Origin: a virus
Direction: 5' to 3' (one strand)
Virus record (IMG/VR): IMGVR_UViG_3300027668_002455
Coordinates: 64,001-128,000 of that record
DNA: 64,000 nucleotides
Shown: positions 2 to 52,140 of the stretch, one piece after another
How the letters are laid out: the number at the start of each line of letters is the position of its first letter
Numbering within the stretch: position 1 is the stretch's first letter
Made by a program: the position numbers and the translations under genes
The notes under the pieces: generated by a model
Told to the model about the DNA's origin: nothing
What the model saw: only the letters and a program-made list of their open reading frames with translations
Database searches by the model: none

Positions 2-550
2 GTAATATGTGATCAATCTCACCCAGATTCATCAGGAATGAAGATCAGTCTTGAGAAAATTAATTTCGAAGGAGGGGAGGTGGCTGAGGTCATATTAAAA
101 GACAAAGAGGTTAATATTTTTCCCGATTCCTTTTTAGACCCAAACGGGCACCCCTCTTTCCCTTGGAGGCTCCACATAAAAGACTGGATTATATACGCCG
201 ATAGCGAGACTGCTGACAGGGTCTGGGCTGGAATGCTTTCTACATATATAGCACTGGTATCAAATGACATAGTAAGGTTTATGGGTAACAAGCAGATTGG
301 GCTTATTCCCGGGGGAGAAGTCGTTAACGGGGCAGCTGCACTACTAAATAACAGCTGTCTTCACAGGCAACCCCTCCAAGGAAGATGCTTAAAAATTGTT
401 CACCCTAATGAATCGATGAGGAAGAGTGGTTTTAAAGGTAAGCACTTAAGCAGCAAGAAGCTTGGTATCATAAGGGGTGGGTCAGTAATATCCATGGGCT
501 CCCACCAAGACATGGTTGACAGAATACTTGAGTGGGTTGAGAAAAAATAA
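2..550 (+). CDS. Hypothetical protein, probably 5'-truncated by the window
   Basis: Frame is open from position 2; stop overlaps the next ATG (TAATG); no recognisable motif. Confidence 0.6.
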   Translation, partial: VICDQSHPDSSGMKISLEKINFEGGEVAEVILKDKEVNIFPDSFLDPNGHPSFPWRLHIKDWIIYADSETADRVWAGMLSTYIALVSNDIVRFMGNKQIGLIPGGEVVNGAAALLNNSCLHRQPLQGRCLKIVHPNESMRKSGFKGKHLSSKKLGIIRGGSVISMGSHQDMVDRILEWVEKK

Positions 551-1212
551 TGTCCTGTAAAAGAAATAATTTTATTTTTATCCATAACCCAAAAACAGGG
601 GGAGAAACTATAGAAACGTTATTAAAACACCGCAAAAACCATTCATATGCTTATGAATTAAAGGATAAAATTAAAAATAAATATTCTTTTGTTTTTGTTA
701 GGCACCCAGTTACAAGAATTATATCGTGGTATAATCACTTGTTAAAACATAGATATTATAAAGATATAGAAAATAATAAATTGAACAACTCTAGCACGTG
801 CTATGATAAGCTTAAAAAGTCCCACAAAATGGGACCCCGAGTGCACAGGCAGATTGCAGAAAAAAATAATATCAATGATTGGATTAAAATAATGCTTAAT
901 GATGTTGATACATATAATAAACCACAATGGGGACCATTATCCCATCAATATTTGTATGTTTATGATACAGACGGTAAAACAAAATTAGTATCAGAATTTT
1001 TTAAATTTGAAAATTATCAAGAAGAACTAATAAAAATATTTAAGAAATTAAAGAAAGAGGAATTAATTAAAAGCATAGATAAAACAAATCACTCCAAAAA
1101 AATAAATGATAAACTAACCAGTGAATCTATAGAACTGATATATAATTATTTTGAAAAAGATTTTGAACTTTTCAATTATAAAAAATATGAATATGATTGT
1201 ACACTAAAATGA
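550..1212 (+). CDS. Carbohydrate sulfotransferase (Sulfotransfer_2 family)
   Basis: 5'-PSB motif FIHNPKTGG and 3'-PB motif FVRHP..RIISWY. Confidence 0.85.
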   Translation: MSCKRNNFIFIHNPKTGGETIETLLKHRKNHSYAYELKDKIKNKYSFVFVRHPVTRIISWYNHLLKHRYYKDIENNKLNNSSTCYDKLKKSHKMGPRVHRQIAEKNNINDWIKIMLNDVDTYNKPQWGPLSHQYLYVYDTDGKTKLVSEFFKFENYQEELIKIFKKLKKEELIKSIDKTNHSKKINDKLTSESIELIYNYFEKDFELFNYKKYEYDCTLK

Positions 1213-1865
1213 AAACGGCAGCATTCATACCAATTAAAAGCAACTCCGAAAGAGTGAAAGGAAAAAATTTCACAAAGCTCTGCGGCAAAAAGCTTTATGA
1301 ACACATTATACTCAATGCCTTGGAAGCATCGTGTTTTGATGCCATCTATGTAGATACAGACAGTCAAGAGATAAAAGACTTTTGCAACAAAAATAATACA
1401 TATATAATTGAAAGAGACCCGCGCCTAGCAAGTAACAGTGCAAATGGAAATGATTTACTTAACCACCACGCGTATAACTTCCCTGCGTACGATTTATATT
1501 TTCAACTATTTGCAACAGCGCCCTTTTTAAAACCCAGCACGATTGCTGAGTGTGTTGGTAAGTTAGCCACAACAAATAAACACGATTCTATACTAACGGT
1601 TACTGAAGAGCCCGGTTGGTACTGGGTAAACGGAGTCCCCGTTAATTACAGACCGGGGATACTACCGAGAAGCCAAGATGCAGTGTCGGTTCTTAAGGAG
1701 AGCACGGGGCTTTATGGAGTAAGCAGGAGCTCTTTGAGAAAATACCAATGTAGGATAGGAGCAAAACCCATTTTCCACAAGATAGATAGGGTGGAGGCTA
1801 TGGATTTAGATACTGTAGATGATTTTTTAATAGCAAAGAGTTTTTGTAAAGATGAAGAAGCTTGA
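1209..1865 (+). CDS. Acylneuraminate/KDO-type cytidylyltransferase (NeuA/KdsB family)
   Basis: IPIKSNSERVKGKN, VDTDS, TAPFL, DLDT.DDF motifs; ATG at 1209 overlaps the upstream stop. Confidence 0.85.
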   Translation: MKTAAFIPIKSNSERVKGKNFTKLCGKKLYEHIILNALEASCFDAIYVDTDSQEIKDFCNKNNTYIIERDPRLASNSANGNDLLNHHAYNFPAYDLYFQLFATAPFLKPSTIAECVGKLATTNKHDSILTVTEEPGWYWVNGVPVNYRPGILPRSQDAVSVLKESTGLYGVSRSSLRKYQCRIGAKPIFHKIDRVEAMDLDTVDDFLIAKSFCKDEEA

Positions 1866-2391
1866 AACAGAAAATATAGAATCAGTTTTTGAAAGAGTAA
1901 TAAATAGCTCTGAGTGGGGCCTTTTACAACGTCATTTTAATCGTAGCAAAGATATATATTTAGCGGGTAACGGTGGTAATTCAGCCATCGCTGACCACGG
2001 CGCAATAGATATGACTCGCCATACTGACAAAAATATCGTATGTGCCGGAAGTGCTGTCTTAGCTACATCAATTATAAATGATGTTGGTTTTGAAAAGTGG
2101 ACATCTAAATGGCTAGATTTTATTTTGAGGGGTAGAGAAAAAGTTGGGGGAGGCATGTTCATAGGTATATCTGCCTCTGGTACATCAAAAAACCTTTTAG
2201 ATGCCTTAGATTATTGTGATGAAAGGGGCCGCGTTTCCGCATTAATAACAGCAAAGCCCCCAAAGGTAGAAAAGCCAAATTCTATAATAGTAGTTCTTGA
2301 CGTTGAATACTATCACACTGCAGAGGTATTAAGCCTTATGTTAATGTACCAACTTATAATTGGCTCTGGATTTAACTGTCCAAAAATATGA
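1852..2391 (+). CDS. SIS-domain sugar-phosphate isomerase (GmhA-like)
   Basis: GNGGNSAIADH, ISASGTSKN and EVLSL motifs. Confidence 0.8.
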   Translation: MKKLETENIESVFERVINSSEWGLLQRHFNRSKDIYLAGNGGNSAIADHGAIDMTRHTDKNIVCAGSAVLATSIINDVGFEKWTSKWLDFILRGREKVGGGMFIGISASGTSKNLLDALDYCDERGRVSALITAKPPKVEKPNSIIVVLDVEYYHTAEVLSLMLMYQLIIGSGFNCPKI

Positions 2392-3044
2392 TAATATCCC
2401 ACAAACATAAATTCATTTTCTTCCACCTTCAAAAAACAGGGGGAACATCGATTGCTCACGCGATGTTTCCTCAGTTGGGAAAAGAGGATGAGGTGATAGG
2501 ATATAAAAAGCTACAAGAAAAAAATCCCGAGTCCCCGCTCTCTAAGCACTCTTCTTGCTTAAGTGTTTTTGATTCTATGGATATTGATGTTTATAAAGAC
2601 TATTTTAAGTTTGCGTTTGTTAGAAATCCCTATGACTTATTCGTTTCCCTTTATCACTGGTGGCAAAAAACCCCCTCTTGGGATGATCCGTCCTTATTAC
2701 AAACAAGACTGAGTAAAGTAGAAAGTTTCGAAGAATTTTGTTATAGATATGAACAAATTAAAAAGCCTTATAATTTTTTATATGACAACCACTTTTTTAG
2801 CACTCAATATAAGTACTTTTTCTTTAATGACAGTCTTTTATTTAATTTTTTAGGAAGACATGAAACCCTTCAAGAGGACTACGAGAAAATATGCAAAATC
2901 ATAGGGATACGTTCATCTACCCTTGAAAAACTAAATGTATCAGAAAGAGACGCAAACCATAGAATCTACTACAATGAAAATTGCATCAAATACGTTAAGC
3001 GAAAATATAAAAAAGAATTAAAAACATTTAATTATAAATTTTAA
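2388..3044 (+). CDS. Carbohydrate sulfotransferase (Sulfotransfer_2 family)
   Basis: MIISHKHKFIFFHLQKTGGTSI, FAFVRNPYD.FVSLY, GRHETLQED. Confidence 0.88.
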   Translation: MIISHKHKFIFFHLQKTGGTSIAHAMFPQLGKEDEVIGYKKLQEKNPESPLSKHSSCLSVFDSMDIDVYKDYFKFAFVRNPYDLFVSLYHWWQKTPSWDDPSLLQTRLSKVESFEEFCYRYEQIKKPYNFLYDNHFFSTQYKYFFFNDSLLFNFLGRHETLQEDYEKICKIIGIRSSTLEKLNVSERDANHRIYYNENCIKYVKRKYKKELKTFNYKF

Positions 3045-3047
3045 TAT

Positions 3048-3124
3048 GCTCTCGTAGCTCAATTGGATAGAGCATCTGTCTTCTAAACAGAGGGTTCTGG
3101 GTTCAAGTCCCAGTGAGAGTACCA
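3048..3124 (+). tRNA. tRNA-Arg(UCU)
   Basis: Cloverleaf: GCTCTCG/TGAGAGT acceptor stem, GCTC/GAGC D-stem, TCTGT-CT-TCT-AA-ACAGA anticodon arm, CTGGG-TTCAAGT-CCCAG T-arm, encoded CCA. Confidence 0.97.
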
Positions 3125-3130
3125 TTTATA

Positions 3131-3613
3131 ATGAAAGAGGATATAAATAAAAAATATTTAGATGACCCCAAGTTCCACCGGATAATAAACAGTCTAATGA
3201 ACATAGAGCTTACAGTGGTAGCGGCTAGTGGTTATTTTGACCCACTTCATGTGGGTCATGTAGAATACTTAGAGAAGGCTAAGGCTCTTGGGGATAAGCT
3301 GGTTGTTATTGTGAATAGCGACGCTCAAGCCGCACTGAAAAAAGGGAAGTCTTTCATGAGTCAGGGCGATAGATTGAAAATCATTAAATCTTTAAGGTGC
3401 GTAGATGAAGCCTTCATTGCCATTGACACTGACCAAACCGTATGCAAGTCCCTGATAGCCTGTGACCCACATATTTTTGCAAATGGCGGAGATCGCTCGG
3501 AAGAAGAAATACCCGAGGCTGGAATATGCAAGGAAACAGGCATCGAAATGGTAGATGAATTAGGAAGAAAAATCAGGTCATCTTCTGATTATACAGGGTT
3601 AAAGAGTGGTTAA
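3131..3613 (+). CDS. HIGH-motif nucleotidyltransferase (TagD/RfaE domain II-like)
   Basis: SGYFDPLHVGH, VIVNSD, ANGGDR, IRSSS; start moved to ATG 3131 because GTG 3113 lies inside the tRNA. Confidence 0.85.
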   Translation: MKEDINKKYLDDPKFHRIINSLMNIELTVVAASGYFDPLHVGHVEYLEKAKALGDKLVVIVNSDAQAALKKGKSFMSQGDRLKIIKSLRCVDEAFIAIDTDQTVCKSLIACDPHIFANGGDRSEEEIPEAGICKETGIEMVDELGRKIRSSSDYTGLKSG

Positions 3614-3616
3614 AAA

Positions 3617-3633
3617 GTGTAATATAATTACAC
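3617..3633. promoter_or_regulatory. GTGTAA motif within inverted repeat GTGTAAT-ATA-ATTACAC
   Basis: Motif ends 12 nt before ATG 3635; the same hexamer recurs before many genes. Confidence 0.55.
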
Positions 3634-3634
3634 G

Positions 3635-4829: not shown

Positions 4830-4830
4830 T

Positions 4831-5816: not shown

Positions 5817-5817
5817 A

Positions 5818-37468: not shown

Positions 37469-37470
37469 TC

Positions 37471-38680: not shown

Positions 38681-38686
38681 TTGTAT

Positions 38687-41476: not shown

Positions 41477-44400
41477 TTAAGAAGCCCCCGTTATACAAAT
41501 ACCTGAATCATACATTAATTCTATGCTTACTGACCCAAAATTTCTAAGTTCTTCACAAGGATAAATTTTAAAAAGCTGAACTTGGCTTCCCACGTCGATA
41601 TATCCTCCATCACCTGTGTAAACGCTGTTAAAGTGCCAGCCGGTTATAGTTTCAGTCGTTTGAGTCATGGCATTGGGGTCATGACTAGGTATCACAGTTG
41701 TTTGGGGAATAAATACGCCGCTATCCATATGACACTCGGCACTTGCATCGGAGTCAGCAATAAATTTAATCCCTGTAACATTGAGTGCATTTCGACCACT
41801 AATATGTAACTGCACACCCCCGTCGCCTCGAGTTGGGGTAACCCCTATCATAACTGGAATTCTACCCGATATTGTAGTTTGGTCTCCTGTAATTTTACTT
41901 ACATTTTGAAGAGCATACGTTTCGCGAAGCTGGATGAAATCCTGTCTTAATAAATCTATATCCACACCAGACTCACTATTGTAGTCGTCAAAGGTATATC
42001 CCAATTCATTATTAAATATTTCATGACGTGAAATTAAGAACGGATTACCGGTGCCTACCACCTGATCATTAAACGTTCCTGTGATAACTGTATATCCAGT
42101 CACATAACCTGCGCTTGCGTCAATGTGAGTTTTATCAAGTTCAAATTTACCAAAGTAAAAATACTTACTATAATTACCACTATTGTGTCTATCTATACCT
42201 ATTTCACTTATGGGCGGATAGGTATTATTTCTCATTGCGTGTGAATCACCAGTGTTCGCTACAAATTCTACCACTCCGTCTCCCGCAGTATAAGGTTGTA
42301 AACTATTCCCCGTAAACCCTAATAATGGAACTAGGTGAGAGGCATTAATTCCAGTTATCCTAAATTGACAGCCAACTTGAGTTTTAACAGTTTCAATACC
42401 AGAAATTGTTGGCATGGGGGTAAATTCCATTGGGGCTTTTATGGGTTGATCTGTATCATTCCATCCACTTATAATTGGTTTTCCCTTTACTAATTCATGA
42501 GGAACCTTTGCCTCAATACCTGTATTATCTATGTAAGTTATATCCATTCCTGATACGTAACGGGTTTGAACATAAGAACTACTCGATATGTCTTCACCTT
42601 GGTAAGCGGGGAACAGAACTATATCAACATCTGGTTCAAAGTTATTACCGGAGAAACTTACGGTTTCACCATAAACTCCAGTAAGAGGAATAAAGCTTCG
42701 AATACCACTAGTCAATATATTCAAGAGCCCTGTTGACATTTGCATTCCTGTTTGAGAAAATAACTGGATAGGGGTATAGGGTGCGCCGCTACTAGGAATA
42801 GAAAAGTTTATTCCCGTTGTGCCTACCCCTGTAAATGGAAGCAGCACCCTATCCTCAGAAAATCCTGAAAGATATAATTTTTGTGCAAGATCTAAAGATT
42901 GGCCATAAACCGAAACCACTTCGTTTGGATACCCAGAAATAGGTGTAAAACGAATGATCTTCATTTGTGGGGCTTCAATTTCAAAAGTACACCCCGTAAC
43001 TGGTGCAAAACCAGTTCCCACGATTGTAATGGGTCCGCTTACTGATTCTGCAGGGACAGTCACGTGTAGTGAAGTTTGATCAGACCTGAACCAGTCTTCT
43101 GCTGGGGTTCTATTGTCACCTACTAATACTCCAGTTATATCGAAGAAATACAACCCCTCTACAGTTAGGCTGTCTCCCCATGCTAATATCTTGCCTCCAG
43201 TGGGACAGCAATGAGAGTCAAAGAAGTAATGGGCATAATGAGGACCGTCTGCATGACACACAAGTTCATTTCGATGATGACAGGATACGAACGGGCGCGG
43301 TGCAACAAATACGCCGGTATATTTTGCATATCCAGTTTCTAGATTGAAACCATCCATTAGACCCTCATAACCAATAGCATCAAGTGAACCACCACCCAGA
43401 GTTAAGGGGCCGCTTTGAATATCAAGGCCGCTCCCGAGAGTAACACCAGCTATCCCTGTCGAGACATACGCTGACGTGCTATACTCTAGAGCTATACCAC
43501 TATAATTAATCATCCCCGCAAAATATCCATTAACATAAGCTTTGACATCTCTATCCTGCCTTGTGAAAGCTACGTGATTCCAATCGCCAGAGTTCCAATA
43601 CCCAAAATATGACCCTGAACTTTGAGTAGAGTTAGTTGTAAAGGCAAATAGTCTATCAGTGGGAATGCCGGGACTAAACTCACCACTACTCCCAGTGGTA
43701 TAATCTGGCCTTAGTCCGGTTATTCTACCCCCGTTAAAAAGATCTATACCAAGTGCTTGTTCGCCGTCGCCGCCTGAAAGGAAGAAGTTAAAGCCACTAC
43801 CTGTTGTTCCGAAGCTTAAAAGAGTTTGTCGTTTAATTCCGTTATCAACTGGGGCTCCGGTTAGAGTGGTAGAATAGGCCGTGCCGCTCGGTTTAATCCA
43901 CATCTCTGCGGTAAAGTCTTCAACTCCCAATGTTATATTTTGAGCAACAAGGGTATTTGCGCGGTTATAAGTCCTACTGCCAGTAGGAAATCTTAGGGCG
44001 TAAGTTCCAAACTTTCCTTCTCCAGTAGCAAATTCAATATTATTTGCAGGAGAACTCACCGAAGTAGTTGTAAACACGCGGGCGTATTGACTATCTCCCG
44101 TTATACCGTCAGCAATTATATTGCTCGGATCGCTCGGGATTTCAAAATTTAACATGGCATCCGTATAAACACCGCTGGTGATGGCACTTGCCGGCTTTGT
44201 GTATTTCCCATTATAGGGGGAAAATACTGCTCTTTTTGTTACATTGATTTCATCAATATACACTCTTTCACCAAGATCACTATTTAGCCAACCACTGTCG
44301 TAAGTTCCCGTTTTGGGAAGACTAGTATACTTTGATCCGCTTGAAATTATAAATTGGTCAACCTGCCCATGATAACTAACCAGTGGGCACTCCTTGAAGA

Positions 44401-47400
44401 TCAGTTGTTTAATAAACACTTCGTTGCCGTAGCCGGGGTTCATGTGGGACCCACCGAAACCCCCAGCTATCTTATCTATCGACGCGGCCACTTCACCGAT
44501 ATCAGGTTGCCCGTGCACCGTATTTCCCCACTGCGGACAGTAAAAATTAATCTTATCACCCTTGGTGACCCCTGTAATTATAGATGTTATAATTTGTTCT
44601 ACAAAACACGCGTTGGTGCCGTAAGCGGACCTGTTTTTTTCATCTACTCTGTGTGAAAAATTAGGAATTCCATAATCTGCCTCTGTTCCCAGTGCTCCGT
44701 GCTTATAGGTGTGGTGCGCGGCACCAGCGGCGCGGTTCATCCGAAAGCCGATTGGGAAGCTCTGTGCGTTTTCATATGTTCCCGTGGTGCCAGTTGAGCC
44801 ATATCTATTATAGATCCAGTTGGTGGTAATATTTGAGACCTGCCCTATCCACGGATACACGGGCTGCCTCTGATGTGTGGTGTGCATCTGATTGCCGCCC
44901 CATCTTGCGACTACCGTCGCCTGACACTCAACTGCAGCACCCTCTTGGACGGTGTACTCGTAACCTCCCGAGGTTGTGTCCATAAAACTGTTAGAAAAAC
45001 TGGAGGTGATGTTCTCCCGCTCCGGGGATAAAAAGTTTATATCAACCAGACCACTTGTAGTGGAATATCTTGGGAAGAACTTACAAGGCTGTGACTCCCA
45101 CAAGAGCCCTGTGTCATCTACTTTATGATAAGATAGGTGGCCCGAGACACCGCCCCCTAAAAACACCTGTTGACCCGTTGCGTCTATCACTGGCATACCA
45201 GTGTAAATATTCCTAGTGTTATGGTTTGCAGCAAAATCTTCAGTTTGCAAAGCACCTGCTGGCTCCCCATTAATATAAGTAAAGAAGTCAGTATTTTCGC
45301 GACACAGTGCAACGTGGTTCCATTCCCCCTTTTTAAAATGAACATCGTTATAAGGCGGTATTAAGTCAAACGAAAGATTCGGATTTTCGTAATCAAAACA
45401 CAGCCTAAATCTATTAGTATAATTATTTAATATAAAAGCTAAGCCATTTCCAGTAGCAAAATTATTATTACTCTGACCAAGTACCCATAGTGTTTGCATG
45501 CCGTTGCCCCCAACTCCGAGACCTTGAGTCGCGCCACTTGGCTTCATCCAGCACTCTACAGTGAAATCACCAGTTCCATAATTAAAATTACTTCCCGTGG
45601 TTTGTATATAGTCTATACCTGTTACCAGTAGACTTTGGGAACCACATTTTGGATTATCATTTACAAAAAGTGGAAAACCACCAGTGGTTATTGTTTGAGA
45701 GTATTTACCGCTATCTACAAAATTACCTTCTAATCCAAGTTGTAAATCAGTTCTAATGAGTCTGCCGGGAACATCTGGGGAGCCAGTAATGCTCGGAGAA
45801 AAACACTGATTATATCCAGTATTAAATGAATCAAAGTTTCCTGTGCAAAGACCACCGAAATAAAATTTTGTTCTTCCTTGTGGAAGATGCGGATCAATAA
45901 GCCCTGTTGGAATTATGTCTCCATATCTACAGCCATTATAATGAAAGCTATAACCCGTTACATCTTTAACGACAGCACAGTGATTGTATCCGCTTTGTGG
46001 AAACCACCCTGTCCATAAGTATTTACTTTCCAACTGTATGCCTGAGAGATTTACGTATGGCTTAATAGTGTTAGTAATTCCTGCAGTGCCGCTTTCACGG
46101 GTATACCCAACGTGGAAAAATGAATTTCCACTTACCCCCGTGTATTCACCGCTAAACCCAAAGAGTGCAATATCTTTACTGTGGTAAGGGTTGTGTTCTA
46201 AACCCGTGTGATCAATTGCAGGATTTATCCAAAACTCTACAGACCACGAATCTTCCTTGCTTAGATCTAACCCCGATGAAGCCTCGGTTTGTAAATAGCC
46301 GCCTCGGAACCTAAGGCTCCCACTACTATTTACTTCAAAGTTTTGTTCTCCACCTGTAGGGAAAAATGCTCCCGTAGCTTCGGATTCAATCCCAGAAAAA
46401 CCATAAAAAATAGCATTTAAAGCAGTTTGCGGATTCCAAATATTATGAGGAACCTCTGTAAATTCATAGACTACACCGCTCGAAACAATGTTTTGATCAT
46501 ACAGAGTATATCCGGTAGAGCCAGTATATAAAGCATGCCCATAACACTGATTAGCGTCACAAGATGTTAGTTCTGGGTCTGGCAATATATAAAAACCACT
46601 TATGCCCTGTTCCGTTGTAACCCCACTAAACGTTTGCACCGGAGGTTGGTCACACCCATCAGGGAAACTGGCGTGTCCTTCGATACAATGGTTTGGAACA
46701 CCGCATGTTCCCTCTTCGGGGGGAAGAAATATTGGGCCCCTCGGCGCGGGCGGCTGGCCCGGTTTCGGCGATCCTTGCGTCCCGATTGGTTGGCCATTCC
46801 ACGGGCCATTTACGGGGGGAAGTAAAATTGGCCCAGTCTTAGGATACCCAAATGATGTGACAGAGGGTATCCTCACGGTTATAAAAGGCGGCGAGGAGGG
46901 GTTTAGGCCGGGGTTTCCAAGGCCCACGGGGAGTTGCTGTTGATAAGACTCTGGCGGCCAGCACAACGGAAACTGTACGGGTGCACTAATTACTCCAGTT
47001 CCATTAGATCCACCAACCGTTGTAGTTGTAAAGGGGTTTTGTGCGGTTGAACAGGACACTATTCTACCGCCCATCAAGATCCGACCTCCAACTGTGGGGT
47101 CCTGTGTAAGCCCCTCTGGACCCGCTGAACCCACACGTGGAACAGTCATTGATTCGCCGGGTCTAAAAAGTACACTCCCTAGACTCCGTGAACCACCCCG
47201 AGAAACGCCCTCTGCACTCACCGTGCTGCCGGGGTTTTGGGGCTCTGGCTGGTTATTTCTTGGTAGTGGTGGCTGCAGTCCCGGCGACTCATGAGTACCC
47301 GGAAAATTAGGGTCAATTGTCTGAATCGCAGGACCACCTCCCGGTGGGGGGTAACTAGAATGAGTGCCCGGTCTGCTACCACCGCAGTTGGAAGTGTTGC

Positions 47401-50158
47401 TGGTCCCCCTTGGATTAGCCGTCTGCGTGCGTATCGAAAAAGCTTGTGCATTAGTACGCTCAAGTGGTGGATTTGGTACGGACGACTGTCTTTGCATGGT
47501 ATTCGGGCGAGGCTCAACCTGCGGAGCTAGAGAGATACGCCTATAACCAAGTGGAGCATTTTCTACCTCGGTTCTGCTACGCGCATATCTAGGCGCACCG
47601 TTTTCCCAAATTGTCGCCTGTGTCCAAAGCCCCCCCATAGAATACCATTTTATCGCATCGAAGATACCGATACTCCCACGGAGATTAACGCGGTTGCCCG
47701 CGTTATTCCTATAAGGTCGCTGAACTGAAGATATTCTGTGTTCTCCAAGAGTGCTAGATGTTATGGGTACTGAGGGGATAGTCGAGCATATCTGCGGTCC
47801 CTGCGATGGGGGATAGGGCCACGTACCGGGCATTTCCCGCACCACTGATTGTTGACCATATAAATTAGTTTGCTCGGAGTTAACTAGTGGCCCAAACGCG
47901 GGCGGCGTTGGAACAGGTTTCTCACTAGACTCTGACTCCCACGGGGGAGGAGATTCCCCACCGGGACCCGGAGGTTGATTACCACCACCGCCCCCTTGAT
48001 CATCACAGTCTTGAGAGTAAGGGTCACAGGGCGGAACCGGTTCGGCGTACGGGGGTTCGTTGGGCGGGTTTCCCGTCGGACAAATCGGTGGCTGTGGAGG
48101 GCCACCCGGCGATGTTGGTGGATGACCAGCGGAAGCTGCCGCCATTTGTACACACGGGTTATTATCATATCTTCCAGAAGCTGCCGTTCTATCAATATTG
48201 TTAAAATTAGTATTTCCAGCCAGCCCCGATGATAACACTTGCGTGGTAAGAAAACAATTAATCAGATCAGGTTGAAAATTAGGAGAATTGACATCCAAAT
48301 ATTCCCAGTGACCGCTAAAATAAAACAAGAACGCCTGCTCACAACCACTTAGGTAGTAAAGCGGAGAATCCCCCCTATCCTTCTTCGCTTGATAATCTTC
48401 CATGCAGGTTTGAACATTAGGGCCTGCTGTTGGATACCAAACACTTATAGGTGCAGGGTCGATCCCTGTGATTTCACACCCCGAAATTCCGCTCATGTAC
48501 CAATTCTGCACCGCGCTATTAACTGGGCGATAACCTAAATTACTTGAAACATTCGGCATCATCATTGAGTCAGATGAACCCTCATTGACAAGTACCCCGC
48601 TACTGTATGTAACCCCCGTCATTATGCCGCTCTCTAGAAGGCCAGTTATAGGGATATTAATATACCCACTTGGTCGTACCACAATACCCGAAATATAACC
48701 TGTAATTACGCCCGTGCCTGAAGCTAATCCGGTTACTACATAACCACTAAACCCCGTATCTAAAACAGTATTGAAACCAGTAACACCGCTTATTGCACCG
48801 CTGATCCCACTTGATAAATATCCGGTCTGGGTCATCATTCGCGGCTCGGACCCCACAGAAAAAACCTGTTCGGAACAGTTGCCCCAACACCCTGTGGTCT
48901 TATATACTCCAGAGTCATAGTTGCCTGTCTCTAAAAGATAGTGGGGCCAGAGACCTATACTATTATTTGTGACACCCGCTTGCATGCGTGTTGTCTCTGG
49001 GGCAAAAGGAGAAACATAATATTTATTATCAGAAATATAATAACCTGTTAATTCTCCATCAATATTTTCATTTTGTTTAATTCTAATGGGCCCAGTTCTA
49101 GCTGTGGCAGGGGTGTATCCTGTTAAGGCAAAAATCTCTGCGCCCGACTTAGGAAGAAACAGTCCAGTTGCTCCCTCTCCAGCAAACGCTACTAGATAAC
49201 CAGCTTCATCATCATAAGTTCCAGTAGTATTTAAAAATTGTCCCTGTGTCCAGTGCATCAATTCGGGTAAAAAATACCTACCCGATATCGTCATTGCTCT
49301 TCCTGAAAAACCTATACCATTGTTACAATCATCCTCTGGAAACCAAGTGCATCCAGTAATTTTTATACTCGGTTTAATTTTTCCTACAGAAGGTTGGCTT
49401 TTTAAATTTCCGCTTGAAAGAATCTGAACGTGACCGTAAAAATTTCCAGATGGTAACGTAAAACTAATTCCTGTATTATTAATTTTTTCAAAGGGTAGAT
49501 AAACAGTAACATCGCCCGTAGTATTAGCATAAACACCCGTTACAGATTGATATATAAAAATATTATTAGTGTTGTCTCCTGTAAATCCAACCCCAGTTAC
49601 CCCCGTCGGTTCTTGCCAATAACCTGATTCATTTTGAGTAAAACCAGTGGTACTCAATAAGGCTAAACCGCTAGCAGATAAAAGGCCATCTCCCACTACA
49701 TAAGCTGTGTCCCCCGATATACCTGAAAGTGGACTCAGATAATTAATCATCGGTATAGCAGTGAAACGTTCTCCACTAATTCCGGAGGCATACCCAGTAA
49801 CGTTTCTGGATGTAGAGATTACCGTGATGGGGGCCGGATAACCATATTTAACCCATTGATCTTTTGGCTGTAATCCGGTTATGGTGTCAATAGAGGGAAC
49901 GGTAAATTGTATTGTATTTTTGTTTACAACTTCATACTCAGCCGAAGTTCCACTTACTAGAATATTTAATCCACCATAGACAGCATTCCCAGTTGGGTCA
50001 CCCGAAGCTCCCGAAGCTAGTCCAGTAGGTGCCCATCCTGTTATGCCACTAGTATAAACTCCGCCAACCCTAACATCATTAATCTTAAAGAATTTACTAC
50101 CCGAGCCAGAGATTGTAACTTGGCTTTTGAGATTTCCAGTTGGAGGAAGAATTACCAT
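41477..50158 (-). CDS. Giant (2893 aa) virion structural protein with IPT/TIG repeats, LamG domains and a Pro-rich region
   Basis: F.P..G..G..V...G IPT starts; FT.E.W.KP and WNHVA LamG motifs. Confidence 0.8.
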   Translation of the reverse strand: MVILPPTGNLKSQVTISGSGSKFFKINDVRVGGVYTSGITGWAPTGLASGASGDPTGNAVYGGLNILVSGTSAEYEVVNKNTIQFTVPSIDTITGLQPKDQWVKYGYPAPITVISTSRNVTGYASGISGERFTAIPMINYLSPLSGISGDTAYVVGDGLLSASGLALLSTTGFTQNESGYWQEPTGVTGVGFTGDNTNNIFIYQSVTGVYANTTGDVTVYLPFEKINNTGISFTLPSGNFYGHVQILSSGNLKSQPSVGKIKPSIKITGCTWFPEDDCNNGIGFSGRAMTISGRYFLPELMHWTQGQFLNTTGTYDDEAGYLVAFAGEGATGLFLPKSGAEIFALTGYTPATARTGPIRIKQNENIDGELTGYYISDNKYYVSPFAPETTRMQAGVTNNSIGLWPHYLLETGNYDSGVYKTTGCWGNCSEQVFSVGSEPRMMTQTGYLSSGISGAISGVTGFNTVLDTGFSGYVVTGLASGTGVITGYISGIVVRPSGYINIPITGLLESGIMTGVTYSSGVLVNEGSSDSMMMPNVSSNLGYRPVNSAVQNWYMSGISGCEITGIDPAPISVWYPTAGPNVQTCMEDYQAKKDRGDSPLYYLSGCEQAFLFYFSGHWEYLDVNSPNFQPDLINCFLTTQVLSSGLAGNTNFNNIDRTAASGRYDNNPCVQMAAASAGHPPTSPGGPPQPPICPTGNPPNEPPYAEPVPPCDPYSQDCDDQGGGGGNQPPGPGGESPPPWESESSEKPVPTPPAFGPLVNSEQTNLYGQQSVVREMPGTWPYPPSQGPQICSTIPSVPITSSTLGEHRISSVQRPYRNNAGNRVNLRGSIGIFDAIKWYSMGGLWTQATIWENGAPRYARSRTEVENAPLGYRRISLAPQVEPRPNTMQRQSSVPNPPLERTNAQAFSIRTQTANPRGTSNTSNCGGSRPGTHSSYPPPGGGPAIQTIDPNFPGTHESPGLQPPLPRNNQPEPQNPGSTVSAEGVSRGGSRSLGSVLFRPGESMTVPRVGSAGPEGLTQDPTVGGRILMGGRIVSCSTAQNPFTTTTVGGSNGTGVISAPVQFPLCWPPESYQQQLPVGLGNPGLNPSSPPFITVRIPSVTSFGYPKTGPILLPPVNGPWNGQPIGTQGSPKPGQPPAPRGPIFLPPEEGTCGVPNHCIEGHASFPDGCDQPPVQTFSGVTTEQGISGFYILPDPELTSCDANQCYGHALYTGSTGYTLYDQNIVSSGVVYEFTEVPHNIWNPQTALNAIFYGFSGIESEATGAFFPTGGEQNFEVNSSGSLRFRGGYLQTEASSGLDLSKEDSWSVEFWINPAIDHTGLEHNPYHSKDIALFGFSGEYTGVSGNSFFHVGYTRESGTAGITNTIKPYVNLSGIQLESKYLWTGWFPQSGYNHCAVVKDVTGYSFHYNGCRYGDIIPTGLIDPHLPQGRTKFYFGGLCTGNFDSFNTGYNQCFSPSITGSPDVPGRLIRTDLQLGLEGNFVDSGKYSQTITTGGFPLFVNDNPKCGSQSLLVTGIDYIQTTGSNFNYGTGDFTVECWMKPSGATQGLGVGGNGMQTLWVLGQSNNNFATGNGLAFILNNYTNRFRLCFDYENPNLSFDLIPPYNDVHFKKGEWNHVALCRENTDFFTYINGEPAGALQTEDFAANHNTRNIYTGMPVIDATGQQVFLGGGVSGHLSYHKVDDTGLLWESQPCKFFPRYSTTSGLVDINFLSPERENITSSFSNSFMDTTSGGYEYTVQEGAAVECQATVVARWGGNQMHTTHQRQPVYPWIGQVSNITTNWIYNRYGSTGTTGTYENAQSFPIGFRMNRAAGAAHHTYKHGALGTEADYGIPNFSHRVDEKNRSAYGTNACFVEQIITSIITGVTKGDKINFYCPQWGNTVHGQPDIGEVAASIDKIAGGFGGSHMNPGYGNEVFIKQLIFKECPLVSYHGQVDQFIISSGSKYTSLPKTGTYDSGWLNSDLGERVYIDEINVTKRAVFSPYNGKYTKPASAITSGVYTDAMLNFEIPSDPSNIIADGITGDSQYARVFTTTSVSSPANNIEFATGEGKFGTYALRFPTGSRTYNRANTLVAQNITLGVEDFTAEMWIKPSGTAYSTTLTGAPVDNGIKRQTLLSFGTTGSGFNFFLSGGDGEQALGIDLFNGGRITGLRPDYTTGSSGEFSPGIPTDRLFAFTTNSTQSSGSYFGYWNSGDWNHVAFTRQDRDVKAYVNGYFAGMINYSGIALEYSTSAYVSTGIAGVTLGSGLDIQSGPLTLGGGSLDAIGYEGLMDGFNLETGYAKYTGVFVAPRPFVSCHHRNELVCHADGPHYAHYFFDSHCCPTGGKILAWGDSLTVEGLYFFDITGVLVGDNRTPAEDWFRSDQTSLHVTVPAESVSGPITIVGTGFAPVTGCTFEIEAPQMKIIRFTPISGYPNEVVSVYGQSLDLAQKLYLSGFSEDRVLLPFTGVGTTGINFSIPSSGAPYTPIQLFSQTGMQMSTGLLNILTSGIRSFIPLTGVYGETVSFSGNNFEPDVDIVLFPAYQGEDISSSSYVQTRYVSGMDITYIDNTGIEAKVPHELVKGKPIISGWNDTDQPIKAPMEFTPMPTISGIETVKTQVGCQFRITGINASHLVPLLGFTGNSLQPYTAGDGVVEFVANTGDSHAMRNNTYPPISEIGIDRHNSGNYSKYFYFGKFELDKTHIDASAGYVTGYTVITGTFNDQVVGTGNPFLISRHEIFNNELGYTFDDYNSESGVDIDLLRQDFIQLRETYALQNVSKITGDQTTISGRIPVMIGVTPTRGDGGVQLHISGRNALNVTGIKFIADSDASAECHMDSGVFIPQTTVIPSHDPNAMTQTTETITGWHFNSVYTGDGGYIDVGSQVQLFKIYPCEELRNFGSVSIELMYDSGICITGAS

Positions 50159-50161
50159 TTT

Positions 50162-51319
50162 TTAGAATCCTCCATCTTGTACTGTGAATATGCCGGGCAT
50201 GCCGTCTCCGTAGTTTGTGGCGGCTCCCAATTTTGCATCACCACCGGGGGACTTTAAGCCCACTCGACAGGTAATGGCCTCATCCGGTATGGTCGTAACA
50301 ATTGTGGTTGGGGTATGTGTCGTAAAGTGAGTGTACTCTCTTTTTTCATCTCCGAAAGTTACTTCTGTTACATTTTCTAAAGCGGCTCCTGAAATAGTTA
50401 TAGTTGCCCCCACTACTCCAGCAGTCGGAGTAAAGGAAGTAATTGCCGGGGCATTCTGATATTTTTCTTGGCTTAATGAAAGGGTGGTGGTAATTTTTTC
50501 ACCTGCTGTTACATTTATGTTATGTGCTTTTAAGGCTCCTCGGATTTTATAAGACTGCCCCGTAATGCCATTTGAATTACTAAAACCAACAAGCAATTCT
50601 CCCTCGGCTATTCCACTAAAAAATTTATCATTTAAATAATTTTGTTGCTCTGTATCACTAGTGAAGTCACCTACCCCTTCGTCCCACGAAGGTAAGGCAT
50701 AGCCATTGATGCTGGCGTCAATAGTTTTCTTATTAAATCGCAACTCTCTAGGTACTGCGTCTCCGACTGTATAAACTGGTTGCACATTACTTGAGAAAGA
50801 AAAAGAAACACTAGTGGAAGCTTTGACCTGTTCGGTTTCTCCATCCTCGTGAGGGGTTACTCCGGAGATTTGTGTTAATTTACAATCGGTGTAAGTTAAG
50901 ATATCTGCGTCTAGAGTTTCTCGAGTGGGGGCAAACCTCCCCCTAAGGCCTCCATAAAAAGCAATAGTAGCACTAATCATAGCAGGGCCAAATGGAGGGA
51001 CCTCAAAAGAGTAGCTATTTAGAACCCCGCTTGAAAAAGAAAGTCCAGCAAAATTTCCAGATATGAGATTATCAGACTCCATGAAGTTGGCCAGAAAATC
51101 TTCCCCTGTTAGATAATAACTTAAGGAAAGGTTTCCGTCGATTCCCCCTCCAGCTAGATAACCAAAGCTACTTCGATTAGGTAGGAGGTCAATTGCTTTT
51201 AGGTTATTAGTTAAAGAAATTGCTAAATTTTCGACATAGATTGGAACTGCTGCACCCCAAGACCCCCCGGCATAGCTCGCTAGCTCTAATTTGGCATTAT
51301 TATAATTATAATAAGACAT
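50162..51319 (-). CDS. Tail structural protein (tail-tube-like fold suspected) with C-terminal IPT/TIG domain
   Basis: Beta-rich duplicated N-terminal part; PAITSFTPTAGVVGATITISG IPT motif; minus-strand GTGTAA upstream (51349-51354). Confidence 0.55.
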   Translation of the reverse strand: MSYYNYNNAKLELASYAGGSWGAAVPIYVENLAISLTNNLKAIDLLPNRSSFGYLAGGGIDGNLSLSYYLTGEDFLANFMESDNLISGNFAGLSFSSGVLNSYSFEVPPFGPAMISATIAFYGGLRGRFAPTRETLDADILTYTDCKLTQISGVTPHEDGETEQVKASTSVSFSFSSNVQPVYTVGDAVPRELRFNKKTIDASINGYALPSWDEGVGDFTSDTEQQNYLNDKFFSGIAEGELLVGFSNSNGITGQSYKIRGALKAHNINVTAGEKITTTLSLSQEKYQNAPAITSFTPTAGVVGATITISGAALENVTEVTFGDEKREYTHFTTHTPTTIVTTIPDEAITCRVGLKSPGGDAKLGAATNYGDGMPGIFTVQDGGF

Positions 51320-51357
51320 TCTTCCTTTTAACCTTTTACCTTAATAAATTACACATT

Positions 51358-52140
51358 TTACACCAAAAGTTCTTCTTTTAAATTCTTATATTTCGTTAAC
51401 TCCTTTTTTTGCCGATCTACGTCCCAAGGTCTCGAAACTGTTCCATTTCTTACGTTATAGTAGCAAGCGATGACACTATCTACGGGTACCGTTTTAATTC
51501 CTGAAGACTTAAACTCATCCCATAAGAACATATCTTCGTGAGCATCCATTCCTTCATAAAATAACTGCCCATCATCTGGGATTATATCTGCATGCATTAA
51601 GGTGGTCCACGGGCCATATTTGCCTGTTTTTATGGAATCTGTAGCTTTTCTTAAATTTTTTTCACCGTTTTTACAGTGATACCAGCTTCCAACTAGGAAT
51701 CCCTCATTAAGCTCTCGGGCTATCTCGGGCAGAGCAAGGGCTCTTTCTTGGGTAAAAAAATCATCTGCATCTGCTAAAAATACAGCTGGATAATCTTCTT
51801 TATACCCTAAAGTCTTCTCAATTATTCTATTTTTGGCTCCCGCCACTGTTTGTGCCTTTTTAAATTTAAATAGATTAAATTCTTTTGCAGAGCTATATTG
51901 TGAAAAAAAATTAACTATTTTATAAGTATCATCATCACTTTCATCATCAGCAAAGTGCATGACCCAATCCAGATTTTTCATAGCATTCTCAATAGAATTA
52001 AGAACAATTGGCAACCAATCCGAGGCATTTCTCGCGGAAATCACTACTTGACAACCTCTTTTTTCCCATAAATTTTTATTTTTAATTTTCTGGGCTTTTT
52101 GTTGGAAAATTTTCTGCCTCTCTGCCACACTCCGGATCAT
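51358..52140 (-). CDS. GT2 glycosyltransferase inside the tail gene cluster
   Basis: VVISARN, DDESDDDT, AGAKN, DADD, HED motifs. Confidence 0.8.
   Translation of the reverse strand: MIRSVAERQKIFQQKAQKIKNKNLWEKRGCQVVISARNASDWLPIVLNSIENAMKNLDWVMHFADDESDDDTYKIVNFFSQYSSAKEFNLFKFKKAQTVAGAKNRIIEKTLGYKEDYPAVFLADADDFFTQERALALPEIARELNEGFLVGSWYHCKNGEKNLRKATDSIKTGKYGPWTTLMHADIIPDDGQLFYEGMDAHEDMFLWDEFKSSGIKTVPVDSVIACYYNVRNGTVSRPWDVDRQKKELTKYKNLKEELLV

What the first reader, a model, noticed from the sequence alone, without database searches (positions are those of the whole stretch)
550..52140. Candidate phage-encoded virion glycosylation and sulfation system with an (S/T)-G acceptor motif
Seen: about nine GT-like genes (GT2, GT4, GT9 types), two carbohydrate sulfotransferases, and nucleotide-sugar enzymes (NeuA-like, GmhA-like, HIGH nucleotidyltransferase, WbpB/D/E-like, Gmd, epimerase). 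One GT2 sits inside the tail cluster. No flippase, O-antigen polymerase/ligase or GtrABC seroconversion genes are visible, and the GTs look soluble. The tail proteins are saturated with SG/TG dipeptides. Established: glycosylated virions are known in giant viruses and some mycobacteriophages, and Ser-Gly is the glycosaminoglycan attachment site in animal proteoglycans. Inference: this phage builds a sulfated, proteoglycan-like coat on its tail proteins in the cytoplasm. The coat could shield the virion, aid adhesion, or mimic sulfated polysaccharides recognised by the host.
Basis: partly seen in the sequence, partly recalled or inferred. Interest (0 to 1): 0.85.

Follow-up and report, generated by a model that had tools for sequence, protein, structure and literature searches.

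The report
Ser/Thr-Gly-studded phage fibres, glycan genes
Two distal tail-fibre proteins of this large uncultured marine phage carry Ser-Gly/Thr-Gly pairs 2.5-2.8 times more often than chance and the phage has many sugar and sulfate enzymes, but relatives keep the motif without the sulfate enzymes or the tail-cluster sugar transferase, so a sugar coat on the fibres is possible and a sulfated one is poorly supported.

Summary
Two Sulfotransfer_2 genes, a set of nucleotide-sugar enzymes and seven (not nine) supported glycosyltransferase genes are present. None has a membrane segment, and the window has no flippase-like gene.

The [ST]G excess is real (z 7.7 and 14.6) but occurs in only two proteins, the 575-aa fibre and the 2893-aa giant protein. 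It is absent from J, M, L, K, I and the TIG protein. It is specific to Ser/Thr (Asn/Asp-Gly is depleted), acts at the protein level, is conserved in homologues, spans several domain types, and is absent from T4 and lambda fibres.

Comparative data break the proposed link. The motif runs through a very large aquatic siphophage lineage (63/68 and 41/45 loci). The tail-cluster GT2 occurs only in the window's subclade. Three 91-100% complete relatives with [ST]G-rich fibres have no sulfotransferase, and one of them lacks most of the sugar-nucleotide island.

Only a core set is always present: a 364-aa GT-B, a GT2-like protein, Gmd, and a split GT9 fused to a zinc-ribbon GT4. No relative lacking this core was found. 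Fibre O-glycosylation by the core enzymes therefore remains the leading but untested reading (about 0.38). The sulfated proteoglycan-like coat rates about 0.1.

This scan has noted similar [ST]G and SGS motifs in other marine phages.

The parts
550..1212 (+). Sulfotransferase (Sulfotransfer_2), subclade-specific
   Evidence: PF03567 E 3.9e-14. PAPS-loop motifs PKTGGE and VRHPVTRIIS. Absent from G006, G007 and G008.
1197..1865 (+). CMP-sugar cytidylyltransferase-like (PseF/KdsB/NeuA type)
   Evidence: PF02348 E 9e-19. PseF 78.6 bits, below the cut-off. No homologue in G001, G006 or G007.
1852..2391 (+). Weak SIS / GmhA-like isomerase
   Evidence: SIS E 3e-4. gmhA 34.7 bits against a cut-off of 209. 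Assignment tentative.
2388..3044 (+). Second Sulfotransfer_2 sulfotransferase
   Evidence: PF03567 E 5.5e-14. 42% identical to a G001 gene.
3113..3613 (+). HldE-domain-II-like nucleotidyltransferase (HIGH motif)
   Evidence: rfaE_dom_II 85 bits, below the 181.5 cut-off. 71% identical in G001, absent from G006 and G007.
9274..10368 (+). Core GT-B glycosyltransferase (364 aa)
   Evidence: phrog_2170 glycosyltransferase E 4e-19. Weak PF00534 match. 53-59% identical in G001, G006 and G007.
16632..19164 (+). WbpB-like 3-dehydrogenase, hexapeptide acetyltransferase and DegT aminotransferase (three genes)
   Evidence: Pfam matches. NCBIfam best hits are UDP-GlcNAc 3-dehydrogenase, NeuD/PglB family and PseC, all below cut-off. 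Absent from G007.
19161..20051 (+). GT4 glycosyltransferase (accessory)
   Evidence: PF00534 32.1 bits, above the cut-off. Not found in G006 or G007.
19981..21715 (+). Two weak GT2-like genes (19981-20784 is core; 20777-21715 is in G001 and G007)
   Evidence: PF00535 20 and 17.9 bits, below the cut-off. Homologues at 32-56% identity.
23047..24120 (+). GDP-mannose 4,6-dehydratase (core)
   Evidence: PF16363 E 5e-108. gmd 336 bits against a cut-off of 415. 47-75% identical in G001, G006 and G007.
34072..34977 (+). SDR sugar epimerase/reductase (present in only part of the lineage)
   Evidence: PF01370 E 8e-55. Best NCBIfam match is GalE. Found in 10/80 loci.
35549..37468 (+). 639-aa fusion: GT4-like GT-B with a 4-Cys zinc ribbon, a DUF4214-like segment, and the N-lobe of a GT9 enzyme
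   Evidence: phrog_2170. PF00534 in 21/22 orthologues and DUF4214 in 16/22. C272, C275, C290 and C293 are invariant. The C-terminus aligns to residues 2-64 of GT9 structures 3tov and 1psw.
37471..38655 (+). 394-aa protein: GT9 C-lobe (residues 1-186) plus an unassigned domain
   Evidence: PF01075 28.8 bits. AF2 pLDDT 90. VIA Z 18.1 to WaaF, 17.2 to WaaC, 15.6 to TibC. Core gene with 216 IMG/VR relatives.
38681..39421 (+). 246-aa conserved protein of unknown function, last gene of the replication-side operon
   Evidence: No Pfam, PHROG, NCBIfam or PDB match. 40-57% identical across the lineage.
39411..39746 (-). 111-aa protein downstream of the fibre (possible assembly factor)
   Evidence: phrog_9114, unknown function. 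A 107-120 aa ORF sits at the same position in relatives.
39748..41475 (-). 575-aa distal fibre, [ST]G 2.78-fold enriched
   Evidence: Counts and shuffles. 26 homologues. Site conservation. Fibre collar motif BppL_N. The shaft cannot be modelled as a monomer.
41477..50158 (-). 2893-aa giant fibre protein, [ST]G 2.52-fold enriched (3.6-fold in residues 1-660), with two LamG domains and a Pro-rich linker that lacks the motif
50162..51319 (-). 385-aa IPT/TIG protein, not enriched (0.88)
   Evidence: PF01833. Conserved position in relatives.
51358..52140 (-). Soluble GT2 at the head of the fibre gene block, subclade-specific
   Evidence: PF00535 E 3.7e-13. Start and DADD motif. Found only in L036, L038, L040, L134, L136, L137 and L182. 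Unrelated to the first gene of the other sublineages.

Best explanation
The window belongs to a large uncultured marine siphophage, about 175 kb, with a lambda-like M-L-K-I-J tail tip. It is a member of a very large aquatic lineage.

Shown: the distal fibre proteins of this lineage carry a hydrophobic-[Ser/Thr]-Gly motif across Ig-like, LamG and shaft regions. The motif is missing from the disordered linker, the rest of the tail and the non-structural proteins. The receptor-binding tip holds only two sites.

Inferred: these hydroxyl residues are O-glycosylation sites filled in the cytoplasm by the lineage's conserved soluble glycosyltransferases. These are the 364-aa GT-B, a GT2-like enzyme, and a two-protein complex in which a zinc-ribbon GT4 carries the N-lobe of a GT9 enzyme and the next gene carries its C-lobe. 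Gmd would supply a 6-deoxyhexose precursor.

Also inferred: the genes found only in the window's subclade are an accessory, exchangeable layer. They include four or five sulfotransferases across the subclade's genomes, the CMP-sugar, heptose-like and diacetamido-sugar enzymes, the GT4 and the fibre-block GT2. This layer either elaborates the fibre glycan or acts on another target. It is not what the [ST]G motif depends on.
For: - The motif is strong and specific. z is 7.7 and 14.6; only Ser and Thr are enriched before Gly (2.4-2.9 fold) while Asn/Asp-Gly is depleted (0.6-0.7); codon use is diverse.
- 70% of all Gly in residues 1-660 of the giant protein follow Ser or Thr.
- Sites keep Ser/Thr in 86.5% of homologue cells against 56.8% for other Ser/Thr positions, with Ser/Thr swaps and 1% Asn/Asp.
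- The bias spans different folds but not the Pro-rich linker.
- T4 gp34-37 and lambda J, Stf and H show 0.7-1.65.
- In G001, a whole-contig scan found strong enrichment only in the fibre-block proteins.
- The motif and the core glycosyltransferases are both lineage-wide.
- The GT639 / GT9-like / 246-aa genes lie next to the fibre block in most relatives. GT639 is more conserved (58-64%) than DnaE (37-55%) although the fibres diverge.
- All the glycosyltransferases are soluble.
- Precedents: phage-encoded virion glycosylation in mycobacteriophages (as summarised in PMC12619734), and GT9-type cytoplasmic hyperglycosylation of beta-helical adhesins by TibC (PMC4358343).
Against: - There is no chemical evidence at all.
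- Motif and core glycosyltransferases are both fixed in the lineage, so their co-occurrence does not discriminate. No natural knock-out was found.
- A distant relative (C24) has the GT639 / GT9-like / 260-aa trio, yet none of the large structural proteins on its 47-kb contig exceeds 1.6.
- The trio sits in the replication operon after DnaE and an SSB-like gene, not in the late fibre operon.
- The fibre shaft could not be modelled (pLDDT 43.6), so exposure of the sites is unknown.
- Part of the bias in shafts may be structural. GxGL-type fibre repeats occur here, and a collagen-like (GSS/GTS)n protein occurs in G007.
Confidence: 0.38

Rival explanations
1. The [ST]G bias is a structural or evolutionary signature of this lineage's beta-rich trimeric fibre architecture. 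Ser/Thr would cap strands ahead of Gly turns, inherited through repeat expansion, and would have nothing to do with glycosylation. The glycan genes would act on host envelope glycans (LPS core, O-antigen, capsule or EPS) through host export machinery, for example to block superinfection or to stop progeny sticking to debris.
For: - The motif persists unchanged where the tail-cluster GT2, the sulfotransferases and most sugar-nucleotide genes are absent.
- The sites are conserved like structural residues.
- The shaft contains GxGL-like repeats, and a relative has a true collagen-like (GSS/GTS)n fibre.
- The accessory island varies between subclades as O-antigen-type gene sets do.
- The best structural matches of the GT9 lobe are LPS heptosyltransferases WaaF and WaaC, ahead of TibC.
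- Peripheral LPS and O-antigen transferases normally lack membrane segments (established knowledge).
Against: - The bias occurs in unrelated domain types (Ig-like, LamG, shaft), while Asn/Asp-Gly, the usual turn dipeptides, are depleted.
- Classical fibres, this phage's own J and the TIG protein lack it.
- No membrane-linked initiating transferase, flippase, polymerase or ligase occurs in the window.
- No case of a strictly lytic phage remodelling host glycans with such a set has been shown (own knowledge).
Confidence: 0.3
2. One reading: a sulfated, proteoglycan-like glycan is built on Ser-Gly/Thr-Gly of the tail proteins. The tail-cluster GT2 starts it and the sulfotransferases finish it.
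For: - Two intact Sulfotransfer_2 genes are in the window. G001 and G002 of the same subclade carry three of these plus one Sulfotransfer_1 each.
- A soluble GT2 with a DXD motif lies directly upstream of the TIG, giant and fibre genes.
- The motif is real.
Against: - Complete or near-complete relatives with [ST]G-rich fibres have no sulfotransferase of PF03567, PF00685 or PF13469.
- GT2 is limited to one subclade.
- The sequence context is hydrophobic, not the acidic context of xylosyltransferase sites.
- No GT14, GT7, GT31 or GT43-type linker enzymes were seen.
- The sulfotransferase genes are more than 35 kb from the fibre block.
Confidence: 0.1
3. The GT639 / GT9-like pair, and perhaps the 364-aa GT-B, modify phage DNA or a replisome protein, as T4 glucosylates its DNA. 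The fibre motif would be unrelated.
For: - The pair is the tail end of the replication operon: RecA-like, DnaB, primase, nucleases, DnaE, an SSB-like gene, GT639, the GT9-like gene and the 246-aa gene.
- It is more conserved than DnaE.
- The 364-aa GT-B sits beside ribonucleotide reductase.
- A zinc ribbon could bind nucleic acid.
Against: - No hydroxymethylase was found. The thymidylate-synthase homologues of G006 and G007 pass the true ThyA equivalog cut-off.
- No Tet/JBP dioxygenase was found.
- GT9 enzymes are not known to act on DNA (own knowledge).
- The rest of this phage's own genome could not be searched.
Confidence: 0.1

Closest known systems
Mycobacteriophage virion glycosylation (Che8, Corndog, Myrna; Freeman et al. 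2023, as summarised in PMC12619734)
   Same: Phage-encoded soluble glycosyltransferases would modify the phage's own virion proteins in the cytoplasm. In the window's subclade one of them (GT2) lies among the structural genes.
   Different: There the glycans sit on C-terminal ends of the capsid and tail-tube subunits. Here the candidate sites are hundreds of internal hydrophobic-[ST]-G positions in distal fibres only. The enzyme set is far larger and includes sugar-nucleotide synthesis and sulfotransferases. Nothing has been shown chemically.
Bacterial autotransporter heptosyltransferases (TibC/TibA, Aah/AIDA-I; PMC4358343)
   Same: A GT9-type enzyme in the cytoplasm puts sugars on many Ser residues of a repetitive beta-rich adhesin. 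The phage has a GT9 C-lobe (Z 15.6 to TibC), a 4-Cys metal ribbon in the partner protein and HldE/GmhA-like genes.
   Different: The phage GT9 is split over two polypeptides and fused to a GT4. It resembles LPS heptosyltransferases slightly better (WaaF Z 18.1). No iron finger lies within the C-lobe, and no N-terminal beta-barrel was detected. The ADP-heptose genes score below family cut-offs and are missing in relatives.
Giant-virus virion glycosylation (chlorovirus PBCV-1 Vp54, mimivirus fibrils; own knowledge)
   Same: The virus encodes its own sugar-nucleotide enzymes (including GDP-mannose 4,6-dehydratase) and soluble glycosyltransferases, without using a host membrane pathway.
   Different: Those are eukaryotic viruses with different acceptor proteins and atypical N- or O-linkages. 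No [ST]G rule is described for them.
Animal proteoglycan Ser-Gly attachment and Sulfotransfer_2 carbohydrate sulfotransferases
   Same: A Ser-Gly dipeptide and the PF03567 sulfotransferase fold with PAPS-binding motifs.
   Different: The flanks are not acidic and Thr is used as often as Ser. No xylosyltransferase or linker enzymes are present, and the sulfotransferases are not linked to the motif across relatives.
Bacillus BclA collagen-like glycoprotein (GxT repeats O-glycosylated on Thr; own knowledge)
   Same: A Thr directly before Gly in a surface filament is the glycan attachment site. A relative (G007) has a true (GSS/GTS)n collagen-like fibre.
   Different: The window's proteins have no Gly-X-Y periodicity; spacing between sites is broad.
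Alg13/Alg14 split GT-B glycosyltransferase (own knowledge)
   Same: The two Rossmann lobes of one GT-B enzyme lie on separate polypeptides that must associate.
   Different: That is a eukaryotic ER enzyme of the GT1/MurG type. Here the enzyme is GT9-type, and its N-lobe is fused to another complete glycosyltransferase.

Membership tests
Sulfotransfer_2 (PF03567) sulfotransferases | Profile match above the curated cut-off | tested here: met
   53.8 and 53.3 bits against a cut-off of 22.
Sulfotransfer_2 (PF03567) sulfotransferases | 5'-phosphosulfate loop (PKxGxT-like) and 3'-phosphate motif (RxPxxRxxS-like) | tested here: met
   PKTGGE / QKTGGT and VRHPVTRIIS / VRNPYDLFVS. The motif definitions come from my own knowledge.
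Mycobacteriophage-type virion glycosylation | Phage glycosyltransferase genes among or beside virion structural genes | tested here: met
   GT2 at 51358-52140 lies between tail gene M and the fibre block, but only in the window's subclade.
Mycobacteriophage-type virion glycosylation | Glycans on C-terminal ends of the capsid and tail-tube subunits | not tested
   The capsid and tail-tube genes lie outside the window and the genome is not held. The motif studied here is internal and confined to the fibres.
Mycobacteriophage-type virion glycosylation | Glycan detected on virions | not testable with these tools
   The phage is uncultured and no proteomic data are available.
Bacterial autotransporter heptosyltransferases (BAHT) | GT9-type GT-B catalytic core | tested here: inconclusive
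   Only the C-lobe lies in the 394-aa protein (VIA Z 15.6 to TibC, but 18.1 to WaaF and 17.2 to WaaC). The N-lobe motif lies in the preceding protein with weak statistics (E 0.011).
Bacterial autotransporter heptosyltransferases (BAHT) | Four-Cys iron finger inserted in the C-lobe | tested here: not met
   Among 40 orthologues of the 394-aa protein only C11 and C245 are nearly invariant. An invariant CxxC...CxxC exists, but in the GT4 part of the partner protein.
Bacterial autotransporter heptosyltransferases (BAHT) | N-terminal beta-barrel and beta-hairpin thumb for dodecamer assembly | tested here: inconclusive
   The AF2 model starts directly with the GT9 C-lobe. Residues 187-394 form an alpha/beta domain that no listed structure spans. 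Oligomeric state was not tested.
Bacterial autotransporter heptosyltransferases (BAHT) | ADP-heptose as donor | tested here: inconclusive
   The HldE-II-like (85 bits against 181.5) and GmhA-like (35 bits against 209) genes score below cut-off and are absent from G006 and G007.
Animal-type proteoglycan (glycosaminoglycan) attachment | Ser-Gly in an acidic context | tested here: not met
   Position -1 is mostly I/V/T/S/P and +1 mostly I/V/L/Y. Thr is used as often as Ser.
Animal-type proteoglycan (glycosaminoglycan) attachment | Xylosyltransferase and linker-tetrasaccharide enzymes | tested here: not met
   Pfam scans of all window proteins gave only GT1/4, GT2 and GT9 matches.
Phage seroconversion / O-antigen modification (GtrABC, Wzx/Wzy, Oac) | Polytopic membrane proteins (flippase, GtrC-type transferase, polymerase) | tested here: not met
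   No window protein has two or more hydrophobic segments, and no such Pfam family was hit. Use of host machinery is not excluded.
T4-type DNA glycosylation | Route to hydroxymethylated bases (dCMP/dUMP hydroxymethylase or Tet/JBP) | tested here: not met
   No PF00303 match in G001-G003 or G008. G006 and G007 carry a true ThyA by the equivalog cut-off. No PF12851 match. The window's own genome beyond 64 kb was not available.

The most novel reading that the evidence does not exclude
A whole lineage of aquatic siphophages writes a hydrophobic-[Ser/Thr]-Gly sequon hundreds of times into its distal fibres. A conserved cytoplasmic two-protein GT4 and split-GT9 machine hyperglycosylates these sites. 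In the marine subclade of this window the glycan is further elaborated and sulfated, which would make it the first sulfated glycoprotein coat on a phage particle.
Probability: 0.1. Interest if true: 0.85.

Novelty: new variant of a known kind. Interest (0 to 1): 0.58.

Why it matters
If the [ST]G positions are sugar attachment sites, phage fibres would carry a dense, genetically encoded glycan layer. That layer could affect host recognition, stickiness to marine polysaccharide gels, resistance to proteases and grazers, and virus decay in the sea.

The lineage is abundant in aquatic metagenomes: hundreds of IMG/VR contigs, with genomes from about 29% to 43% GC.

It would also give a simple sequence rule for predicting modified virion proteins. 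It would reveal a new enzyme design, a GT-B split between two proteins and fused to a second transferase.

Even if the motif is purely structural, the comparative result is useful. It shows that the large and variable sugar and sulfate island of these phages is not tied to the fibres. That points to another target, such as the host envelope.

Tried and rejected
- **DNA-level cause of the bias:** rejected. Ten Ser/Thr codons and four Gly codons are all used in [ST]G pairs.
- **Generic fibre property:** rejected for T4 gp34-37 and lambda J, Stf and H, and for this phage's own J and TIG proteins. No marine outgroup fibre set was sampled.
- **Collagen-like periodicity in the window's proteins:** rejected, because spacing between sites is broad. 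A relative does have a true (GSS/GTS)n protein.
- **Tail-cluster GT2 as the motif's enzyme:** rejected as a general explanation.
- **Cultured relatives:** tblastn of the fibre, the giant protein, GT2 and the GT9-like protein against 50,697 phage records found nothing. GT639 and the 364-aa GT-B gave only weak cyanophage hits.
- **Fibre structure:** the AF2 monomer was too poor (pLDDT 43.6) to map site exposure.
- **The 246-aa protein:** a profile search against PDB found nothing. The Rad52-like idea from other notes was not testable.
- **GTGTAA 'late promoter':** the motif is not over-represented in the window (18 and 6 copies against about 21 expected per strand). One pair lies between GT2 and the TIG gene and one copy before tail gene M. 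Not pursued.
- **Host:** the only bacterial-MAG hits (Flavobacteriaceae, Halobacteriovorax) are phage-like contigs that were probably mis-binned. No host was assigned.

Full report
**What the window is.** The 64-kb window (GC about 0.39) is one long stretch of phage genes.
- On the + strand lie a glycan and sulfate island, ribonucleotide reductase, a tmRNA, a second glycan block, then a replication operon: RecA-like, DnaB, primase, nucleases, DnaE, epimerase, an SSB-like gene, two glycosyltransferases and a 246-aa gene.
- Converging on that operon is a minus-strand block: GT2, a 385-aa IPT/TIG protein, a 2893-aa giant protein, a 575-aa fibre and a 111-aa gene.
- Diverging from that block is a lambda-type tail tip: M, L, K (JAB), I and a J-like protein longer than 2826 aa.
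- Identical or near-identical proteins occur on marine (TARA, JGI, ENA) contigs up to 175 kb.
- No cultured phage has the fibre, the giant protein, GT2 or the GT9-like gene.
- No whole genome is held for the window.

**Check of the enzymes.**
- Both sulfotransferases are solid Sulfotransfer_2 members and keep their PAPS-binding motifs.
- The sugar-nucleotide enzymes are real at family level:
  - a CMP-sugar cytidylyltransferase;
  - an HldE-domain-II-like nucleotidyltransferase;
  - a weak SIS/GmhA-like protein;
  - a WbpB/D/E-like dehydrogenase, acetyltransferase and aminotransferase triad;
  - Gmd;
  - a GalE-like SDR.
  None passes an NCBIfam equivalog cut-off, so the exact sugars are not known.
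- Seven genes have glycosyltransferase support, not nine.
- The tail-cluster GT2 starts at the ATG at 52140. The hydrophobic stretch upstream belongs to an over-extended TTG frame that a relative lacks. It keeps a DADD (DXD) motif.
- Once the GT2 start is moved to 52140, no glycosyltransferase has a hydrophobic segment, and no window protein has two or more.

**Check of the motif.**
- [ST]G is 2.78-fold enriched in the 575-aa fibre (37 against 13.3) and 2.52-fold in the giant protein (164 against 65). No shuffle out of 2000 reached these values; z is 7.7 and 14.6.
- Every other protein is at background, including the J-like protein (1.06), the TIG protein (0.88) and M, L, K and I.
- Among all residues before Gly, only Ser and Thr are enriched. 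Asn and Asp, the usual turn partners of Gly, are depleted.
- The reverse dipeptide G[ST] is not enriched.
- Ser/Thr and Gly codons in the pairs are diverse, so selection acts on the protein.
- Flanks are hydrophobic (I/V before, I/V/L/Y after) and spacing is irregular.
- The bias holds in every folded part of the giant protein:
  - residues 1-660: 3.56-fold, with 70% of Gly preceded by Ser/Thr;
  - residues 1181-1500: 3.16-fold;
  - the two LamG regions: 2.8 and 2.3-fold;
  - the C-terminal Ig-like part: 3.18-fold.
- It vanishes in the Pro-rich linker (0.45). The fibre's tip domain holds only two sites.
- T4 gp34-37 and lambda H, J and Stf give 0.7-1.65.

**Conservation.**
- In nine fibre homologues down to 32% identity, the 37 sites keep Ser or Thr in 86.5% of cells. 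Other Ser/Thr positions keep it in 56.8%. Ser/Thr swaps are frequent and only 1% of cells hold Asn or Asp.
- In the relative G001 (114 kb), a scan of all ORFs found strong enrichment only in the three proteins of the fibre block. J was 1.25 and a 1519-aa tail protein next to J was 0.62.

**Comparative test of the proposed link.** I collected 80 IMG/VR loci through the GT9-like gene (216 relatives exist) and 79 more through tail protein L (470 relatives).
- The lineage is large, with genomes from about 29% to 43% GC.
- Its layout is conserved: DnaE, sometimes the epimerase, the SSB-like gene, GT639, the GT9-like gene and the 246-aa gene, then the converging fibre block, the TIG protein and the diverging tail genes M and L.
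- [ST]G-rich fibre proteins (observed/expected 1.9-4.0) are present in 63 of 68 and 41 of 45 loci with enough flank.
- One of the exceptions, the complete genome G006, has five such proteins elsewhere, four of them within about 20 kb downstream of J.
- The fibre-block GT2 was found in only 3 of 80 and 4 of 45 loci, all close to the window's subclade.
- In some sublineages the TIG gene abuts tail gene M. In others the block opens with one conserved 270-330-aa family that is not a GT2: it has no Pfam hit and hhalign probability is 0.1%.
- Sulfotransferases of three Pfam families are absent from G006 (209 kb, 100% complete), G007 (194 kb, 100%) and G008 (158 kb, 91%). The same search finds three or four in G001 and G002.
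- G007 has [ST]G-rich fibre proteins. It lacks the CMP-sugar, SIS, HldE-like, WbpB/DegT, GT4, epimerase and GT2 genes.

**What remains linked.**
- A core set is shared by all genomes examined: the 364-aa GT-B (53-59% identity), the GT2-like gene at 19981, Gmd, GT639, the GT9-like gene and the 246-aa gene.
- The GT9-like gene was found on 5 of 8 further contigs. The three without it are only 19-57% complete. No natural knock-out exists in the data, so the co-occurrence is compatible with the model but does not discriminate.
- One distant relative (contig C24, binned in a Halobacteriovorax MAG) has the trio, but none of its large structural proteins exceeds 1.6 in 47 kb.

**The core enzymes.**
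- The AF2 model of the 394-aa protein (pLDDT 90) has a GT9 C-lobe in residues 1-186. VIA-align gives WaaF Z 18.1, a GT9 of Veillonella 17.5, WaaC 17.2 and TibC 15.6, clearly above other GT-B enzymes at 12.6 or less. No listed structure spans the second domain.
- A profile of GT639 orthologues aligns its last roughly 110 residues to residues 2-64 of the same GT9 structures. The statistics are weak (E 0.011), but it is the classical N-terminal motif at the right place.
- One GT9 enzyme therefore appears to be split between two adjacent genes. They are in different frames, 2 nt apart, and an extra small ORF separates them in G001, G002 and L025.
- GT639 also holds a GT4-like GT-B interrupted by an invariant four-Cys ribbon. 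Most orthologues have a DUF4214-like segment as well.
- This resembles the TibC logic: a GT9 catalytic core plus a Cys4 metal finger that reads a beta-helical substrate (PMC4358343). BAHT membership fails on the iron finger within the C-lobe and is inconclusive on the other features.

**Rivals.**
- Host-glycan remodelling is not excluded by the lack of membrane proteins. It fits the variable, island-like accessory genes.
- DNA modification is suggested only by the position of the trio in the replication operon. No hydroxymethylase or Tet/JBP enzyme was found, and the thymidylate synthases of G006 and G007 pass the ThyA equivalog cut-off.
- A purely structural origin of the motif fits its conservation and some repeat patterns. 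It does not explain its presence in unrelated folds or the depletion of Asn/Asp-Gly.

**Verdict.**
- The motif is real, unusual and lineage-wide.
- The enzyme arsenal is real.
- The specific model of a sulfated, proteoglycan-like coat started by the tail-cluster GT2 is not supported by comparison with relatives.
- Fibre O-glycosylation by the conserved core glycosyltransferases is the best remaining mechanism, at about 0.38. The structural-motif-plus-host-glycan reading follows at about 0.3.
- Other agents' notes in this scan report similar [ST]G or SGS biases in other marine phages. I treat these as leads only.

Noticed in passing
window 35549-38655: A GT9 glycosyltransferase appears split between two genes. 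Its N-lobe motif ends the 639-aa zinc-ribbon GT4 protein and its C-lobe starts the next 394-aa protein. Relatives have an extra small ORF between the two. Other first readers noted the same thing on this and other genomes.
   Followed up: yes
window 14335-14753: A one-piece tmRNA gene (Rfam RF00023, 124.7 bits) inside the phage. ARAGORN predicts an unusually long 31-residue tag.
   Followed up: no
window 14931-15401 (-) and 3891-4829 (+): The phage encodes a signal peptidase I (Peptidase_S26, E 1e-24) and a trypsin-like serine protease (Trypsin_2).
   Followed up: no
window 43100-47100 (giant protein residues about 661-1180): A Pro/Gly/Gln-rich, more GC-rich, probably disordered linker of about 520 residues sits inside the giant fibre protein. 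It is the only part without the [ST]G bias (0.45).
   Followed up: partly
G007 135023-142477 (loci L118/L119): A complete relative at 29% GC has a 2484-aa collagen-like protein. It is built of (GSS/GTS)n triplets (25% Ser, 23% Gly) and ends in a tail that looks like an intramolecular-chaperone domain.
   Followed up: partly
L121:6599-7696 and L123:8775-9854: The thymidylate synthases of relatives G007 and G006 are 360-397 aa long. They match the family in two or three pieces, which suggests an insertion of about 40-100 aa.
   Followed up: no
window 6592-7278: A 228-aa protein matches phrog_3704 ('ferredoxin', E 8e-40) end to end but has no Pfam match.
   Followed up: no
L083:19290-20108 and 23 further loci: A conserved 270-330-aa family with no Pfam hit in the representatives tested opens the fibre gene block in most sublineages. 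It occupies the place that GT2 holds in the window's subclade.
   Followed up: partly
G010 (contig of L187, 144 kb): IMG/VR classes one 90%-complete member of the lineage as a provirus. If that is right, it could reveal the host.
   Followed up: no
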